Virus genome (UHGV): UHGV-0245185
DNA from: a virus
Length of the DNA: 36,271 bases
Direction: 5' to 3' (one strand)
Below the pieces are notes generated by a model. That model searched no databases. It was given only the letters and a program-made list of their open reading frames with translations, and was not told the origin of the DNA. The position numbers were made by a program, and so were the translations under genes. Position 1 is the first letter of the stretch; the number at the start of each line of letters is the position of its first letter. Below, one piece after another: positions 19,661 through 23,949 of the stretch.

Positions 19661-20629
19661 TTATTTCAGAAGAGTAACCTCAGCAATTTCTTCCCAACCG
19701 TTTTTGTCGGTCATAATAAAGTCAGCAAGATAAAGAGCAGTACGCAGTGAAACATTGCGTAAACGATTAACATTAACTTTCATCCATGATAATGCTTTAT
19801 AAGTTTCTTCATCAGAAAGACCGCGCTTTTGCATCATGTCAGTTGAAAGAATAACATCTTCAACTCTGACCATAATTTCTTCATTAGTGTGAACACCTAA
19901 ATCCAAATAAACCGAGCGGGACACTAATGCTTGTAAATGTGGAGCAAGTTTAGTACCACGGTCTAATTCGCGGTCAATGTCAACGTTTGTGATAAAAACA
20001 ATCGTTCCTTTAAATTCAAACTCACGCTCAATGCCTTTTTCTTCTAAGTAAGAAGACGCAGTGCTCCAGCAGACTTTACGGGTCTCTCCAGTGTCCAGAG
20101 CGGCTTTTAGAAGATTAAGAATATCCATATCAGAGAAAACATCCACATCATCAATCAAAAGGACAGAATTCTCTTCACGATTATTCCAAAGCTGCTCATA
20201 AAGACCAATACCAGAGATTTTACCATTAATGCTTTTATATTCAATGTATCCAATATCATTTGCTTTATTCAAAGCTTTATCTAAAGAATACGTTTTACCA
20301 ATACCTGCTGCGCCAGAGATAATCAATGAACGAATATTTCCATTAATAATACCATTCGTCATCATTCCCATAACATTAAATCTTTTATTAATGCGGGTTT
20401 TCATATCTTCATACGATTCTTTAACTTCTTCAACTTTTACACCGTCATATGAAATATCTGATTTGTAAACCCAAACACCGCGACGTTTACCGTCAATTTC
20501 AACAAAAACTTTACCATCTCCTTGTGCATCTACCGGAGCATTATCTGGGAACCATTCGCCTAAAAGCTCAAAAGTTCCAGAGATTTCTTTACCGAAGTAG
20601 ATACCCTTATTGATAGTTACAGTTTTCAT
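19661..20629 (-). CDS. P-loop ATPase (AAA-like; Walker A GAAGIGKT, Walker B LLIDDVD)
   Basis: The track start at 20647 is GTG; the ATG at 20629 has SD GGAGAA. Occupies the T4 nrdC.10 position. Confidence 0.65.
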   Translation of the reverse strand: MKTVTINKGIYFGKEISGTFELLGEWFPDNAPVDAQGDGKVFVEIDGKRRGVWVYKSDISYDGVKVEEVKESYEDMKTRINKRFNVMGMMTNGIINGNIRSLIISGAAGIGKTYSLDKALNKANDIGYIEYKSINGKISGIGLYEQLWNNREENSVLLIDDVDVFSDMDILNLLKAALDTGETRKVCWSTASSYLEEKGIEREFEFKGTIVFITNVDIDRELDRGTKLAPHLQALVSRSVYLDLGVHTNEEIMVRVEDVILSTDMMQKRGLSDEETYKALSWMKVNVNRLRNVSLRTALYLADFIMTDKNGWEEIAEVTLLK

Positions 20630-20698
20630 TTTATTCTCCAATTTCACATTTGTTTTAATAGTGTAATAGTATCACACTACTACCCTACTGTAAACAAT

Positions 20699-20962
20699 TT
20701 ATTTTAATGTTTGCCAAATTTTTACTGCTTCGCGACGAGATACTTCTACAGCTCCAAGTTCTACGGCTTTTTGGCGTCGGCGAGCATGTAAGTCATAATG
20801 TTTAATGCGTTTATCTTGAAACCAAGAACGTTTCATTCCTATTGCTTCTGCCATTTTATGAAGCTCTTCAATATCTCCATCAGTGAACATATGACAATTT
20901 TTAGTTGGATGACCGCGAAGTTTCCATCCATGATTCATTAAAACATCTACGTAAACTGTCAT
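20699..20962 (-). CDS. Small conserved protein, DUF4031-like (HMFTD...ELH...IG...W...HYD pattern)
   Basis: ORF track, 87 aa; ATG overlaps the upstream stop (ATGA); motif pattern recognised from memory. Confidence 0.5.
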   Translation of the reverse strand: MTVYVDVLMNHGWKLRGHPTKNCHMFTDGDIEELHKMAEAIGMKRSWFQDKRIKHYDLHARRRQKAVELGAVEVSRREAVKIWQTLK

Positions 20963-21108
20963 TGATTCTGCTCCAAATATGTTTCTATAATTTTCTGAGC
21001 GAGATAAACTGCGTTATCTTCAGTTGCATCTTCTAAGAAATTTTCAAAATAAGCTGAAATTTCTTCTGTGTCAATCAACTTTTTTACTTCAATTAACGTA
21101 GTTTTCAT
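20959..21108 (-). CDS. Hypothetical small acidic protein (49 aa)
   Basis: Internal ATG at 21108 of track ORF 20959..21228; the longer track N-terminus runs across the promoter and terminator, so it is not coding. RBS GGGGAATAAA. Confidence 0.45.
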   Translation of the reverse strand: MKTTLIEVKKLIDTEEISAYFENFLEDATEDNAVYLAQKIIETYLEQNQ

Positions 21109-21142
21109 TTTATTCCCCAAATCCGTATCAGTTGATAGTTGT

Positions 21143-21172
21143 ATAGTACCATAAAGCTTTATGCTTGTAAAC
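21143..21172 (-). promoter_or_regulatory. T4-type early promoter (GTTTAC, 18 nt, TACTAT)
   Basis: Minus strand AAAAATTTTTTCACAAAACGGTTTAC-AAGCATAAAGCTTTATGG-TACTAT-ACAACTATCAACT; the same flanking consensus recurs near 35760-35810. Confidence 0.55.
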
Positions 21173-21196: not shown

Positions 21197-21222
21197 TAAA
21201 AAAAGGGAGCCCGAAGGCTCCC
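21197..21222 (-). terminator. Intrinsic terminator closing the nucleotidyltransferase operon
   Basis: Minus strand GGGAGCC-TTCG-GGCTCCC followed by TTTTTTT, 3 nt after the 337-aa ORF stop. Confidence 0.75.
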
Positions 21223-21224
21223 TA

Positions 21225-22238
21225 TCATTTATAATAACTTCGGTGGTTTTCAAGATAAACTCTCTCAAGGAAGTCATCCCAGAAACCCATGTCTACTTTT
21301 TGCTGCATACCGTTCTTAGAAGCTTCAATGGATGCTGCTTCTACCTGATCGACAACATCTTCCAAAAACTCTTGAACCGTTTTAAATGGATGTTTACCCA
21401 GCTTCACGTCGAGAATAAATGGAGCGTCTTGAAGTGGATAGACTAAGTCACCAGTTTTGTAAATTTCCAATAGTTGGAGTCCACCGCGACAAGCATGACT
21501 CAGAGCTTTCCAGTCAATACCTTCATTGGCTTCGGCCTTACGAGCACGCTCGCCATATTCGGAATCAAGTTTATTCAAAGATTGCTTAAGTTCAATAAGA
21601 GAAAGTGTTGTCTGATATTTACGACCCAGCACAGTGTAGAACGTTTGTGGGCCTGTTTTCTCATGATTATGGAATACCCATTCACAGAACTCGTTTTCAG
21701 GGAGTCTGTGTTTGATATCTTCTACCTTAGTACGACGAAGTCTATCAGGGATTCCTTCTTGGTAATCAACCCATTGCTCAGGGATTTGATTAACTACTTT
21801 CAATACATCACGTAATGCGGCCAAACGAGAACCCTTAACACCATATTTAGAAGCTTGCTTGCGAACATATCCTAAATAGGATTTCATGTTAGTCGTATAA
21901 AAACGAGAACGGTTGTCTTGAATAAACTTCCATACATCAGGCAAATCAGATTTAACTACTAGTTCCGGTGGAGTGTGGAGCATATCCAATGCTACAGTTT
22001 CACCATCTGCTGCTAATTTAAAGAAATACTTAAGACTGTATAGTTCATGGTCAATATCATCTTTAGTGTTTTTAGATGATGTGTTGTTAGTGTTTTTACT
22101 CATATGCTCTTTAACATTTCCGATAAGAATATCACGAGCAGGAGGAACAAAGATTTCTTTAAAATCTACATCAGATTCTGGAGTAGAAGTTCCATAAAGA
22201 TGACTACCAAAATAGCTTTTCATTACTGTTTTCATCAT
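21225..22238 (-). CDS. Nucleotidyltransferase-fold protein (Pol-beta superfamily GS...D.D motif), 337 aa
   Basis: N-terminus YFGSHLYGTSTPESDVDFKEIFV fits the hG[GS]-x9-13-[DE]h[DE]h nucleotidyltransferase signature, followed by a ~250-aa helical domain. ATG overlaps the upstream stop. Confidence 0.6.
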   Translation of the reverse strand: MMKTVMKSYFGSHLYGTSTPESDVDFKEIFVPPARDILIGNVKEHMSKNTNNTSSKNTKDDIDHELYSLKYFFKLAADGETVALDMLHTPPELVVKSDLPDVWKFIQDNRSRFYTTNMKSYLGYVRKQASKYGVKGSRLAALRDVLKVVNQIPEQWVDYQEGIPDRLRRTKVEDIKHRLPENEFCEWVFHNHEKTGPQTFYTVLGRKYQTTLSLIELKQSLNKLDSEYGERARKAEANEGIDWKALSHACRGGLQLLEIYKTGDLVYPLQDAPFILDVKLGKHPFKTVQEFLEDVVDQVEAASIEASKNGMQQKVDMGFWDDFLERVYLENHRSYYK

Positions 22239-22696
22239 TCAGCCTTATATTCAATAACAGGACACACTTTAGCTTTACGGGCTTTTAAAAATTCGACGAT
22301 AATAGATTTCTTGGGTTGAATATGAGGTAAACCTTTATACGCCCTATCAATATTTTCTACATGTAAAGCATAATCCTTTTTCCATTTATAATCTTTATAT
22401 TTTTCATGCAGTTGTGCAGGAATAACAAATGAACCAATAATAAGTAAAACAAGCAAAATGGCAAGTATAAATGCTGATGGAATAAGAGTCCATAAACTAC
22501 CAAAAATAAGCCATTTCTGTATGATTTCTGCACAGGTAATAGTTAGACCTGCGAGTATAGTACATCCGAAAAAAGAAACGAAAAATGTAGGGATAACAAT
22601 AGACCAAAAATATGCACAAAGTGTCTTAGGTCGTTTCCATTCGTCGTTAAACATTTTGAATAATTTATAATGCCAAGAGTTTTCATTAATAATCAT
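22235..22696 (-). CDS. Membrane protein (153 aa, about three transmembrane helices)
   Basis: ORF track; hydrophobic segments LCAYFWSIVIPTFFVSFFGCTILAGLTI and IPSAFILAILLVLLIIGSFVI. Confidence 0.55.
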   Translation of the reverse strand: MIINENSWHYKLFKMFNDEWKRPKTLCAYFWSIVIPTFFVSFFGCTILAGLTITCAEIIQKWLIFGSLWTLIPSAFILAILLVLLIIGSFVIPAQLHEKYKDYKWKKDYALHVENIDRAYKGLPHIQPKKSIIVEFLKARKAKVCPVIEYKAE

Positions 22697-22698
22697 AA

Positions 22699-23220
22699 TT
22701 ATCCTTTCATTGAAGGTGTAACAGTTGTTAAATACTTAATCATAGCTTCAGCTTCTGATTTTGATAATGAAATTTCTCCATTGTTTTGACGAATAGAAAT
22801 AAAATCCGGATGACGGTCACCACCAGCTTTTAAAACACACATATAAGTATCAGTTTCATCTTCAATATTTGAAATGATTGAAGCAGTTCCACATGAATGT
22901 GGTTTTTGATAAACTAATACAGCTTTTCTTCCACCGTTTGACTGTTCATAAACTTTTAATACACCAAACAAATCACTTCTTTTATCAATAGCTAAGATGT
23001 TGTTTTCATCTTCAATGTTAAATCCTTCGGATACTTCATAAAGTGTCACCCATAAATCACCAATATCAATAACAGCGTTCACTTTTCCATGACTTTCAAG
23101 AGCATTACAAATTTTCTTGATTTCATCATAACTCATTTTAATAATATCATCTCCTTGAATAAAGAAGATGTCATTTTTAAATTCAACGCGAATTAAACCA
23201 CTTTCACTTGAAATAAACAT
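22699..23220 (-). CDS. Hypothetical protein (173 aa), paralog of the 185-aa neighbour
   Basis: ORF track. Shares N-terminal SES and C-terminal ...SEAEAMIKYLTTVTPSM with ...DEAIALKTYLDSVIPTM of the neighbour. Confidence 0.55.
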   Translation of the reverse strand: MFISSESGLIRVEFKNDIFFIQGDDIIKMSYDEIKKICNALESHGKVNAVIDIGDLWVTLYEVSEGFNIEDENNILAIDKRSDLFGVLKVYEQSNGGRKAVLVYQKPHSCGTASIISNIEDETDTYMCVLKAGGDRHPDFISIRQNNGEISLSKSEAEAMIKYLTTVTPSMKG

Positions 23221-23226
23221 ATTTCC

Positions 23227-23784
23227 TCACTTTGAAATCATAGTTGGAATGACAGAATCAAGATAAGTCTTTAGCGCAATAGCTTCGTCTTTGGTAAATG
23301 TGACAATATGTGATCGAAAATCATCAATTTGACGAATAGTTAAGACATCTCCATCTTCATAACATTTTGATACATTTAAAACAGTTTCATCATTTTGATT
23401 GCAAGCGTTAGTAATAATAGCATTGCAATTTTTGAGCCATTTTAAACTATGTTTTCTTTCATTAGAATAATAAAAATATTTAATCTTATCTATAAAACTA
23501 TCCCAATGGATAACTGATAAACACATTGACTCACTTTTAATATTAAATCCTGGGCATGAAGAATAAAAATGAATTTTGTGCTCATCATTGATGCTTACTA
23601 TTTTATCAGTATAAGGATATTCAATTTGGGTTAAATGAATGATTTCACTAGGCGTAAAATATAGCATATCGTCTTCTTGTGTCAAACGATACATATTATT
23701 TACTTTTTCTATAGCTAATTCACCAAAAAGCAGACTAACTTCTAATACTAATCGTTTCATATTGATTCTCTTCGACTCACTCAC
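23227..23784 (-). CDS. Hypothetical protein (185 aa), paralog of the 173-aa neighbour
   Basis: ORF track; GTG start at 23784 supported by paralog alignment (MSES...), with an alternative ATG at 23760. Confidence 0.5.
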   Translation of the reverse strand: MSESKRINMKRLVLEVSLLFGELAIEKVNNMYRLTQEDDMLYFTPSEIIHLTQIEYPYTDKIVSINDEHKIHFYSSCPGFNIKSESMCLSVIHWDSFIDKIKYFYYSNERKHSLKWLKNCNAIITNACNQNDETVLNVSKCYEDGDVLTIRQIDDFRSHIVTFTKDEAIALKTYLDSVIPTMISK

Positions 23785-23919
23785 AATTACATACTCCTTT
23801 GAATAATATCAATAATGTTGTTCACCAGATTATAAGTAAACATTGGATAATTATATTGAATCATCACATACACAACAAACAAAACTTTCATTCTCTTCTC
23901 CTTGGCAGTTGACAAGATT

Positions 23920-23949
23920 ATTATATCATAACCTTGCCAACTTGTAAAC
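23920..23949 (-). promoter_or_regulatory. T4-type early promoter at the head of the nucleotidyltransferase operon
   Basis: Minus strand GGTTTAC-AAGTTGGCAAGGTTATGA-TATAAT, then AAGGAG and a 34-aa leader ORF (23787..23891). Confidence 0.6.

What the first reader, a model, noticed from the sequence alone, without database searches (positions are those of the whole stretch)
21197..23949. Self-contained operon in the T4 mobD position: leader, two paralogs, a membrane protein and a nucleotidyltransferase-fold protein
An early promoter (23920-23949) and a strong terminator (21197-21222) bracket a 34-aa leader ORF, two paralogous proteins of 185 and 173 aa, a 153-aa ~3-helix membrane protein and a 337-aa protein with a Pol-beta-type nucleotidyltransferase signature (YFGSHLYGTSTPESDVDFK). 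No HNH endonuclease is present here. A nucleotidyltransferase paired with a small membrane protein resembles nucleotide-signalling or RNA-repair modules, but that is speculation. I cannot tell from memory whether T4 carries the same genes.
Basis: partly seen in the sequence, partly recalled or inferred. Interest (0 to 1): 0.6.

Follow-up and report, generated by a model that had tools for sequence, protein, structure and literature searches.

The report
T-even phage nrdC.11–mobD.2 early gene block
This is the well-known, dispensable nrdC.11–mobD.2 early gene block of a T4-like phage, in the common version that lacks T4's mobD homing endonuclease; its one recognisable enzyme belongs to a family already described as an RNA-end nucleotidyltransferase for RNA repair, so the finding is ordinary.

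Summary
On the minus strand, a T4-type early promoter (23948-23920) and a strong terminator (21223-21204 plus a U-tract) bracket five ORFs.

- **The window:** it is a Tequatrovirus, about 97% identical to phages BW-1, a51 and ime09.
- **337-aa protein:** this is T4 NrdC.11 (96% identical). It matches Pfam RlaP/PF10127, and a 2025 preprint on RlaP already names T4 NrdC.11 as a member. RlaP enzymes add 1-2 nucleotides to RNA 3'-OH ends.
- **185-aa protein and 34-aa "leader":** these are T4 MobD.1 and MobD.2.
- **173-aa paralog and 153-aa membrane protein:** both are absent from T4. They occupy exactly the segment where T4 carries mobD. About 430 sequenced T-even phages share the window's layout; T4-type mobD appears in only 47 records.
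- **NrdC.11 neighbours elsewhere:** full-length homologs in bacteria and other phages recurrently sit next to RtcB, Pnkp/Hen1, Ro60 and T4-type RNA ligase. They are never next to the membrane protein or MobD.1.

The RNA-repair guess therefore fits NrdC.11 alone. The idea of an integrated NTase-membrane signalling module is not supported. The unit is also not insulated at its 5' end. Novelty: already known. Interest: low.

The parts
23920..23948 (-). T4-type early (sigma-70) promoter, TTTACA-N17-TATAAT with an extended -10 TG
   Evidence: It scores 11 of 12 in the promoter scan (sequence). T4 has the same element upstream of mobD.2. It fits the T4/PST PeSL promoter consensus TTTACW-N17-TAYWAT (PMC4122927). 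No stem-loop lies directly upstream of it.
   Evidence: An AAGGAG Shine-Dalgarno sequence precedes the ATG. It matches phrog_3515 at E = 6.5e-22. It corresponds to the 34-aa T4 mobD.2. Nothing here indicates a regulatory leader role.
23227..23784 (-). MobD.1 ortholog: 185 aa from the GTG start, or 177 aa from the ATG at 23760
   Evidence: It is 86% identical to T4 MobD.1. It matches Pfam T4_y05I_N at 2.4e-38 and T4_y05I_C at 1.8e-21. The AF2 model is poor overall (pLDDT 64), and only the N-terminal domain is confident.
22699..23220 (-). 173-aa paralog of MobD.1, absent from T4
   Evidence: It is 27% identical to the 185-aa protein (E = 1e-8) and has the same two Pfam domains. tblastn finds it in 448 phage records, 432 of them at 90% identity or more, essentially Tequatrovirus only. 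It has no counterpart in the T4 region.
22235..22696 (-). 153-aa small membrane protein (RB69ORF104c type), absent from T4
   Evidence: It has two 33-residue hydrophobic stretches and basic termini. It matches phrog_944 'membrane protein' at 7.9e-50. tblastn finds it in 849 phage records. Conserved motifs are SWH...LCxYFW near the N-terminus and KxK(V/I)CPxIE near the C-terminus. Its stop codon overlaps the nrdC.11 start in ATGA.
21225..22238 (-). nrdC.11, a 337-aa RlaP-family Pol-beta-fold nucleotidyltransferase
21197..21223 (-). Intrinsic terminator: an 8-bp GC-rich stem, UUCG loop and U7 tract
   Evidence: -17.5 kcal/mol, z = -3.86. It is identical in T4.
21143..21171 (-). Next early promoter (TTTACA-N17-TACTAT, with TG); together with the terminator it forms a PeSL-type promoter/stem-loop cassette
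   Evidence: The same arrangement occurs in T4 ahead of nrdC.10. The consensus comes from PMC4122927.

Best explanation
This is the nrdC.11-mobD.2 segment of a T-even (Tequatrovirus) hyperplastic region, in the widespread form that lacks the mobD homing endonuclease. Host sigma-70 RNA polymerase transcribes it early from a T4-type early promoter, and probably also by read-through from the mobD.5-mobD.2a unit upstream. Transcription stops at a strong intrinsic terminator that belongs to a promoter/stem-loop (PeSL) cassette. The genes are dispensable accessory genes that share a transcript. They are not a demonstrably integrated machine.

The only enzyme is NrdC.11, a member of the RlaP family (PF10127) of Pol-beta-fold nucleotidyltransferases. 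The most likely mechanism, inferred from family membership and gene neighbourhoods, runs as follows. When a host anticodon nuclease of the RloC type cuts a tRNA and also removes a nucleotide, NrdC.11 adds one or two NMPs to the 3'-OH of the 5' tRNA fragment. This is predicted to be metal-dependent, using D23, D25 and D63. The phage's own Pnk and RNA ligases, encoded elsewhere in T4-like genomes, can then reseal a full-length anticodon loop.

The other products remain of unknown function. These are the MobD.1 pair (Pfam label 'putative transcription factor'), the small two-span membrane protein and the 34-aa MobD.2. They are linked to NrdC.11 only by inherited gene order within the Tevenvirinae.
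For: Identity of the block:
- The region is 97% identical to BW-1, a51 and ime09, and 429 phage records cover at least 80% of it.
- Annotated maps of ime09, BW-1 and T4 agree on the gene order.
- NrdC.11 is 96% and MobD.1 86% identical to their T4 counterparts.
- blastn shows that window 22240-23201 (membrane gene plus paralog) is cleanly replaced in T4 by the 808-bp mobD cassette.
- T4-type mobD at 95% identity or more occurs in only 47 records.

Transcription signals. The PeSL concept comes from PMC2839356 and PMC4122927.

Dispensability: nrdC.11-mobD.3 is deletable in T4 (PMC9825161).

RlaP membership:
- Pfam score is 43.9 bits against a threshold of 23, and 139 of 140 homologs also match.
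- G11 and S12 are invariant; D23, D25, D61, D63 and D85 are near-invariant.
- The confident AF2 model places GS after strand 1, DxD on strand 2 and D63 on the next core strand.
- The fold matches NTases.
- The RlaP preprint places 'T4NrdC.11' in cluster 5 of the family. It shows that two Pseudomonas RlaPs add 1-2 NMP to RNA 3'-OH ends, prefer broken-tRNA mimics, and restore aminoacylation of a tRNA missing one nucleotide (PMC12776372).

Independent neighbourhood evidence for the NrdC.11 clade itself:
- Viral-like contigs carry RNA_lig_T4_1, or RtcB plus RNA_lig_T4_1, within 0.7-1.5 kb.
- Among 80 bacterial and archaeal loci with full-length homologs (32-54% identity), the only recurrent functional neighbours I checked against Pfam are RtcB (8 loci), Pnkp (6), Hen1 (6) and Ro60/TROVE (4). 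In all, 15 of 80 loci have at least one.
Against: - No activity has been shown for NrdC.11 itself. The biochemistry comes from Pseudomonas RlaPs in a different sequence cluster, reported in a preprint.
- The Pfam match covers only residues 7-136. NrdC.11 is longer (337 aa) and has a beta-rich insert at about 155-209 that is not described for PfRlaP.
- The PfRlaP structure is not in the PDB copy, so no direct superposition was possible.
- In this window and in T4, nrdC.11 is not next to pseT, rnlA or rnlB.
- Only 19% of the bacterial loci show RNA-repair neighbours.
- The translational coupling (ATGA overlap) of the membrane gene to nrdC.11, kept in Dhakavirus Bp7, is left unexplained by the 'no functional link' view.
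Confidence: 0.6

Rival explanations
1. The membrane protein and NrdC.11 form a two-gene functional module. A nucleotide or oligonucleotide made by the NTase would control the membrane protein, or the membrane protein would recruit the NTase. This would be analogous to nucleotide-signalling systems or to Hailong (HalA membrane channel plus HalB NTase), used by the phage for takeover or counter-defence.
For: - The gene order is membrane protein then NTase, with an ATGA stop/start overlap. The same adjacency and overlap occur in Dhakavirus Bp7.
- The pair stays within one or two genes of each other in Klebsiella and Salmonella T4-like phages, at only about 30% identity for the membrane protein.
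- Hailong is itself a membrane-protein-plus-NTase operon (PMC13434031).
Against: - T4 has replaced the membrane gene with mobD yet keeps a 96% identical NrdC.11.
- RB16, Aeromonas phage AsFcp_2 and a Proteus phage have NrdC.11 without a full-length copy of the membrane protein within 4 kb. Only the Proteus phage shows a 37-residue partial match to its N-terminal motif.
- None of the viral contigs or the 80 bacterial and archaeal loci has a membrane-protein homolog beside the NTase.
- The NrdC.11 family profile finds no HalB or CD-NTase sequence in the PDB.
- There is no Pfam CD-NTase hit and no PADLOC hit.
- The HalB match is at the level of the generic NTase fold, on a par with 3c18 and KNTase.
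Confidence: 0.06
2. NrdC.11 is an NTase that acts on something other than RNA ends. It might AMPylate and neutralise a host HEPN-type toxin, as MntA antitoxins do, or nucleotidylate a small molecule, as KNTase and Lnu enzymes do.
For: - There is a weak NCBIfam MntA hit restricted to the GS motif (E = 0.06).
- Anticodon nucleases PrrC and RloC carry HEPN-type nuclease domains (my own knowledge, not tested here).
Against: - The only above-threshold family match is RlaP.
- The structural matches are weak (E about 5e-3, TM 0.25-0.3) and reflect the shared NTase core.
- The characterised RlaPs did not label E. coli proteins or DNA.
- The neighbourhoods point to RNA-end healing and sealing enzymes, not to toxins or antibiotic-resistance contexts.
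Confidence: 0.12
3. The five genes act together as a dedicated regulatory unit. The 34-aa ORF would be a translational leader or attenuator, and the MobD.1 paralogs would be transcription factors controlling nrdC.11.
For: - Pfam labels the MobD.1 domains 'putative transcription factor'.
- The short ORF lies directly after the promoter with a strong Shine-Dalgarno sequence.
- Short Foldseek matches of MobD.1 segments to PUR-alpha nucleic-acid-binding repeats have probability about 1 over 58-68 columns.
Against: - No terminator or attenuator structure follows the 34-aa ORF.
- MobD.2 is a conserved protein family (phrog_3515), which argues against a leader defined only by its position.
- The MobD.1 model is of low confidence (pLDDT 64), and no structural match reaches E of 1e-3 or better.
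- MobD.1 is absent from the Klebsiella and Salmonella T4-like loci that keep nrdC.11, and from the distant homolog loci checked.
Confidence: 0.05

Closest known systems
Phage T4 nrdC.11-mobD-mobD.1-mobD.2 region (NC_000866, 55.4-57.9 kb)
   Same: The flanks, the early promoter, the terminator/PeSL, nrdC.11 (96% aa identity), mobD.1 (86%) and mobD.2 are all shared.
   Different: T4 has the 259-aa HNH endonuclease MobD where the window has the 153-aa membrane protein and the 173-aa MobD.1 paralog. The window also has a 458-bp two-ORF insertion between nrdC.11 and nrdC.10.
Phages ime09, BW-1, a51, RB18, RB51/RB32 and about 430 other Tequatrovirus genomes
   Same: They have an identical gene order: nrdC.11, RB69ORF104c-type membrane protein, 173-aa paralog, MobD.1, MobD.2. 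The DNA is 96-97% identical.
   Different: There are only point differences. The two small ORFs downstream of nrdC.11 are present in BW-1 but not in ime09.
[quoted passage not shown]
   Same: The Pfam match is above threshold, the GS / DxD / third-Asp motif is present, the architecture is an N-terminal NTase domain followed by C-terminal helices, and relatives are associated with RNA ligase genes. The RlaP authors list T4 NrdC.11 as a family member.
   Different: NrdC.11 belongs to a different sequence cluster (cluster 5 against 1a). It is longer and has a beta-rich insert at about 155-209. It is not adjacent to a ligase in T4-like genomes, and its activity has not been tested.
Hailong HalA/HalB anti-phage system
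   Different: There is no sequence-profile relationship. The membrane partner is often absent from NrdC.11 loci. Hailong is a bacterial defence system, whereas this is a phage early gene block. The HalA architecture was not compared.
PeSL (promoter-early stem-loop) cassettes of T4-type phages
   Same: A stem-loop terminator is followed directly by a TTTACW-N17-TAYWAT early promoter at 21223-21143. Neighbouring accessory ORFs differ between close relatives.
   Different: The 5' promoter of the block (23948-23920) has no accompanying stem-loop.

Membership tests
RlaP / PF10127 nucleotidyltransferase | Score above the Pfam gathering threshold | tested here: met
   43.9 bits against a cut-off of 23, E = 3e-11, covering residues 7-136. 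Of 140 full-length homologs, 139 also match, with a best E of 2.2e-19.
RlaP / PF10127 nucleotidyltransferase | Pol-beta NTase catalytic signature: hG[GS], DxD and a third conserved Asp | tested here: met
   G11 and S12 are invariant. D23, D25 and D63 (also D61 and D85) are at least 90% conserved in 140 sequences. In the AF2 model (pLDDT 94.5) they sit at the strand 1/helix turn, on strand 24-31 and on strand 62-68.
RlaP / PF10127 nucleotidyltransferase | N-terminal NTase domain plus a C-terminal helical domain, with the last helix packing back, as in the PfRlaP crystal structure | tested here: inconclusive
   The model shows an N-terminal alpha/beta domain and long C-terminal helices (214-336), plus an extra beta-rich insert at 155-209. 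PfRlaP is not in the PDB copy, so no superposition was possible.
RlaP / PF10127 nucleotidyltransferase | Genomic association with RNA ligase / RNA repair genes | tested here: met
   This is met for relatives. RNA_lig_T4_1 and RtcB lie beside homologs on viral-like contigs. RtcB, Pnkp, Hen1 or Ro60 occur in 15 of 80 bacterial and archaeal loci. It is not met locally: no ligase or kinase gene lies in this window, and in T4 these genes are encoded elsewhere.
RlaP / PF10127 nucleotidyltransferase | Adds 1-2 NMP to RNA 3'-OH ends | not testable with these tools
   This is known only for PfRlaP and PaRlaP (PMC12776372).
CD-NTase / CBASS-type nucleotide signalling | CD-NTase-family sequence, or an associated effector or defence profile | tested here: not met
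   No CD-NTase Pfam hit. No PADLOC hit for any of the proteins. No cGAS or CD-NTase among the top structural matches.
Hailong (HalA membrane effector + HalB NTase) | HalB-family NTase | tested here: inconclusive
Hailong (HalA membrane effector + HalB NTase) | Obligate pairing of the NTase with its membrane partner | tested here: not met
   NrdC.11 occurs without the membrane protein in T4, RB16, an Aeromonas phage, viral contigs and 80 bacterial and archaeal loci. The Proteus phage has only a 37-residue partial match.
T4_y05I (MobD.1) family, PF24449 + PF24448 | Both Pfam domains above threshold | tested here: met
   The 185-aa protein scores 131.2 and 76.7 bits. The 173-aa protein scores 113.3 and 83.5 bits.
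MobD HNH homing endonuclease | HNH endonuclease gene between nrdC.11 and mobD.1 | tested here: not met
   The window has no counterpart of the T4 mobD segment, and no HNH hit among the ORFs.
PeSL promoter/stem-loop cassette | Stem-loop terminator directly followed by an early promoter, at a point where close relatives differ in gene content | tested here: met
   Stem-loop at 21223-21204 plus promoter at 21171-21143. Just downstream lies a 458-bp insertion relative to T4, flanked by a 34-nt repeat. The consensus is from PMC4122927.

The most novel reading that the evidence does not exclude
The translationally coupled small membrane protein and NrdC.11 could be a phage-borne functional pair, kept in several Tevenvirinae genera and analogous in layout to Hailong HalA/HalB. 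The NTase product, or RNA-end tailing at the membrane, would control or depend on the membrane protein. This would be a new type of phage takeover or counter-defence module, and T4 would have lost it when mobD invaded.
Probability: 0.05. Interest if true: 0.6.

Novelty: already known. Interest (0 to 1): 0.15.

Why it matters
It matters little as a discovery. The genes are annotated in hundreds of T-even genomes, the block is dispensable in T4, and NrdC.11 has already been assigned to the RlaP family in print.

The useful residue is practical. NrdC.11 is the natural candidate for the missing 'nucleotide-restoring' step in the classic T4 tRNA repair pathway, which counters anticodon nucleases that excise a base. 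The T-even genomes offer natural variants, with and without the membrane partner or mobD, in which to test this.

The comparison also shows that T4 is the odd one out at this locus. A homing endonuclease displaced two genes there, which is worth knowing when T4 is used as the reference annotation.

Tried and rejected
- **Sequence searches of the PDB.** Searches with NrdC.11, MobD.1 and the profiles A1, A2 and A3 found nothing meaningful.
- **Fold search of MobD.1.** The model is poor (pLDDT 64) and no hit reached E of 1e-3 or better. The short PUR-alpha repeat matches are only a lead.
- **Defence and domain libraries.** PADLOC and NCBIfam gave no useful hits. Rfam gave no RNA family anywhere in the window.
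- **Other promoter types.** There are no late (TATAAATA) or MotA-box middle promoters within 21-24 kb.
- **Partners beside distant homologs.** I looked for homologs of the membrane protein or MobD.1 next to distant NrdC.11 homologs and found none.
- **Papers not held.** The original RlaP paper (Burroughs & Aravind 2016) and the T4 genome review (Miller 2003) are not in the library. A search for 'Y05I' returned only irrelevant papers.
- **CD-NTase/CBASS and antibiotic-NTase readings.** I rejected these for lack of any family-level match.
- **HalB resemblance.** I treated it as generic NTase-fold similarity.
Full report
**What is there.**

On the minus strand the region holds five ORFs:
- 34 aa at 23787-23891
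- 185 aa at 23227-23784 (GTG start; 177 aa from the ATG at 23760)
- 173 aa at 22699-23220
- 153 aa at 22235-22696
- 337 aa at 21225-22238

The 153-aa gene's stop codon overlaps the 337-aa gene's start in ATGA.

Upstream lies TTTACA-N17-TATAAT with an extended -10 TG (23948-23920). It scores 11 of 12 and is the best promoter-like site in the 5.5 kb scanned (sequence).

Downstream lies an 8-bp stem with 6 G-C pairs and a UUCG loop, followed by U7 (21223-21204). Predicted energy is -17.5 kcal/mol, z = -3.86, and none of 200 shuffles folds as well.

Two corrections apply.
- The membrane protein shows two long hydrophobic stretches (26-58 and 62-94) with basic ends on both sides. That suggests two (or four) spans, not three.
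- There is no terminator between the upstream gene mobD.2a and the promoter. The unit is closed at its 3' end but open to read-through at its 5' end; the nearest upstream terminator is at 24794-24777.

**Where the window comes from.**

The region is 96-97% identical over its full length to Escherichia phages BW-1, a51, ime09 and many others. In all, 714 phage records match and 429 cover at least 80% of it. The window is thus a Tequatrovirus, spanning roughly gene 45 to e.8.

In ime09 the five genes are annotated nrdC.11, 'RB69ORF104c', mobD.1, mobD.1a and an unannotated small ORF. In T4 the order is nrdC.11, mobD, mobD.1, mobD.2.

- The 337-aa protein is 96% identical to T4 NrdC.11.
- The 185-aa protein is 86% identical to T4 MobD.1.
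- The 34-aa ORF is T4 MobD.2.

T4 has the same promoter and the same terminator.

A blastn comparison shows a clean cassette swap. Window 22240-23201, which holds the membrane gene and the 173-aa paralog, has no counterpart in T4. T4 carries the 808-bp mobD gene there instead.

T4-type MobD at 95% identity or more is present in only 47 phage records. The 173-aa paralog is present at 90% or more in 432 records, and the membrane protein occurs in 849. The window therefore shows the common arrangement, and T4 is the exception.

The T4 literature treats mobD as a free-standing HNH homing endonuclease inserted between nrdC.11 and mobD.1 (PMC2988022). The nrdC.11-mobD.3 segment can be deleted from T4 (PMC9825161).

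**The nucleotidyltransferase.**

NrdC.11 matches Pfam RlaP (PF10127, 'RNA repair pathway DNA polymerase beta family') at 43.9 bits against a threshold of 23. It also matches phrog_388 'nucleotidyltransferase' at 3e-136.

The family is very large. There are 3426 representatives at E of 1e-3 or better in the 50%-identity library, and 1519 phage records carry a homolog.

In an alignment of 140 full-length homologs (34-55% identity), several residues stand out:
- Invariant: G11, S12, Y132, H248, R251 and P268.
- At least 90% conserved: D23, D25, D61, D63 and D85.

Of those 140, 139 hit RlaP.

The AlphaFold model is confident (pLDDT 94.5, pTM 0.85). It has an N-terminal alpha/beta NTase core, a beta-rich insert at about 155-209, and long C-terminal helices. 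GS sits after the first strand, DxD on the second, and D63 on the strand at 62-68.

Structural neighbours in the PDB are only moderately similar NTases:
- kanamycin and lincosamide nucleotidyltransferases (Foldseek E about 5e-3)

No solved structure is related by sequence.

A December 2025 preprint characterises two Pseudomonas RlaPs (PMC12776372). It reports that:
- they add one or two NMPs to RNA 3'-OH ends;
- they do not act on DNA or protein;
- they prefer mimics of cleaved tRNA and prefer Mn2+;
- they partly restore aminoacylation of a tRNA that lost one anticodon-loop nucleotide.

The preprint explicitly places 'T4NrdC.11' in cluster 5 of the family. An earlier comparative study had already noted the COG3541 nucleotidyltransferase domain in nrdC.11 orthologs (PMC1524935). 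A review of jumbo phages describes RlaP as the commonest phage NTase accompanying RNA ligases (PMC7824862).

**An independent check of the RNA-repair link for the NrdC.11 clade.**

I looked at the surroundings of full-length homologs.
- One phage-like 59-kb contig has a T4-type RNA ligase 1.5 kb downstream and a kinase-like AAA_33 protein.
- Another set of contigs has RtcB and a T4-type RNA ligase two genes downstream.

A scan of one genome per prokaryotic species returned 80 loci with homologs of 32-54% identity. I clustered all neighbouring ORFs. The only recurrent neighbour families with a recognisable function that I checked against Pfam were:
- RtcB (8 loci)
- the kinase-phosphatase-ligase Pnkp (6 loci)
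- Hen1 (6 loci)
- Ro60/TROVE (4 loci)

Fifteen of the 80 loci have at least one of these.

By contrast, no homolog of the 153-aa membrane protein or of MobD.1 lies beside these distant NrdC.11 homologs.

**The other genes.**

The two paralogs share 27% identity (E = 1e-8). Both carry Pfam T4_y05I_N and T4_y05I_C, which Pfam labels 'putative transcription factor'.
- The family is small and restricted to T4-like phages.
- The structure model is poor (pLDDT 64), and only the N-terminal domain is confident.
- No structural match is significant. Short matches to PUR-alpha repeats (four strands and a helix) are a weak hint of nucleic-acid binding.

The membrane protein has no Pfam family. It matches phrog_944. 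Its strictly conserved motifs are SWH...LCxYFW near the N-terminus and KxK(V/I)CPxIE(Y/F) at the C-terminus.

Its position relative to nrdC.11 varies by phage:
- In Dhakavirus Bp7 it is directly upstream and overlapping.
- In a Klebsiella and a Salmonella T4-like phage it lies one or two genes away.
- In T4, RB16 and an Aeromonas phage it is absent from the nrdC.11 neighbourhood. In a Proteus phage only a 37-residue partial match to its N-terminal motif lies 1.7 kb upstream.

The pairing therefore looks like inherited gene order within the Tevenvirinae, not an obligate partnership.

**How it most likely works.**

Shown:
- the identity of the block;
- its promoter and terminator;
- the family membership of NrdC.11;
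- the RNA-repair neighbourhoods of its relatives.

Inferred:
- The block is transcribed early by host RNA polymerase.
- NrdC.11 tails the 3'-OH of broken tRNA fragments that have lost a nucleotide to RloC-type anticodon nucleases.
- The phage's Pnk and RNA ligases, encoded elsewhere in T4-like genomes (established knowledge), can then restore a functional tRNA.

I give this about 0.6. Family membership itself is near certain, but the in vivo role is untested.

The terminator plus the following TTTACA-N17-TACTAT promoter fits the PeSL cassettes described for T4-type phages (PMC2839356, PMC4122927). Those cassettes mark the points where accessory genes are shuffled.

**Rivals.**

An integrated NTase-membrane module, Hailong-like or nucleotide-signalling, has some support:
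- the gene order and translational coupling;
- the HalB structural match.

It also faces strong objections:
- the partner is frequently absent;
- there is no sequence relationship;
- there are no CD-NTase or defence-profile hits.

I give it about 0.06.

The remaining rivals are listed with their evidence in the Rival explanations section. They are a non-RNA substrate (about 0.12) and a leader/transcription-factor regulatory unit (about 0.05).

**Verdict.**

The finding describes real features accurately, but they are the standard, already annotated nrdC.11-mobD.2 block of T-even phages. The one informative protein has already been assigned in the literature to a characterised family. Novelty: already known. 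Interest: low (0.15).

Noticed in passing
window 20642-21099 (ORFs 20959-21108 and 20699-20962, minus strand): This is a 458-bp insertion relative to T4 and ime09, lying between the nrdC.11 terminator and nrdC.10. It carries a 49-aa ORF (phrog_6888) and an 87-aa DUF4031 protein (PF13223, E = 1.6e-21). It is flanked by a 34-nt direct repeat of the nrdC.10 ribosome-binding site and start (20621-20654 and 21100-21133). Each copy is preceded by a TTTACA-N17-TACTAT early promoter. It looks like a PeSL-type cassette insertion. BW-1 annotates these ORFs as 'RNA polymerase ADP-ribosylase', which nothing here supports.
   Followed up: partly
protein P0164 (metagenomic; aligned in A2): This is a natural chimera whose N-terminal two-thirds is MobD.1 and whose C-terminal third is the 173-aa paralog. 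It implies recombination or deletion between the tandem paralogs in some phages.
   Followed up: no
window 22235-22696 (153-aa membrane protein): The family has strictly conserved motifs on both presumed cytoplasmic ends: SWH...P..LCxYFW near the N-terminus and KxK(V/I)CPxIE(Y/F) at the C-terminus. H9, C27 and C145 are invariant, which may indicate a small metal-binding or folded cytoplasmic unit. There is no Pfam family and no known function.
   Followed up: partly
L094 3487-4020 (phage RB16) compared with T4 mobD (L003 8430-9209): RB16 has an unrelated HNH_3 + AP2 homing endonuclease inserted at the same junction, immediately upstream of and overlapping nrdC.11, where T4 has mobD. The 5' edge of nrdC.11 appears to be a recurrent endonuclease insertion site.
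   Followed up: partly
public annotations of homologs: There is widespread name-propagation error. NrdC.11 is often called 'thioredoxin' or even 'HNH homing endonuclease'. MobD.1, MobD.3, MobD.4 and MobD.5 are called 'molybdopterin-guanine dinucleotide biosynthesis protein MobD'.
   Followed up: no
window 23658-23685, minus strand, inside mobD.1: A second near-consensus sigma-70-like site lies here (TTGACA-N16-TATATT with TG, 11 of 12), 100 nt into the MobD.1 coding sequence. It could be an internal promoter or a chance match in AT-rich DNA.
   Followed up: no
window 19661-20647, minus strand (nrdC.10): The next gene downstream has its own early promoter and encodes a 328-aa protein. It has only sub-threshold AAA / STAND-NTPase-like Pfam matches (AAA_14 at 6e-5, nSTAND3 at 5e-4), and its function is unknown.
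   Followed up: no
phage T2 (MH751506.1 53422-53799; P0124): T2 carries a shortened copy of the membrane-protein gene (135 aa, covering residues 28-153 at 83% identity). This is a third state of the locus, besides the intact gene and the T4 mobD replacement.
   Followed up: no
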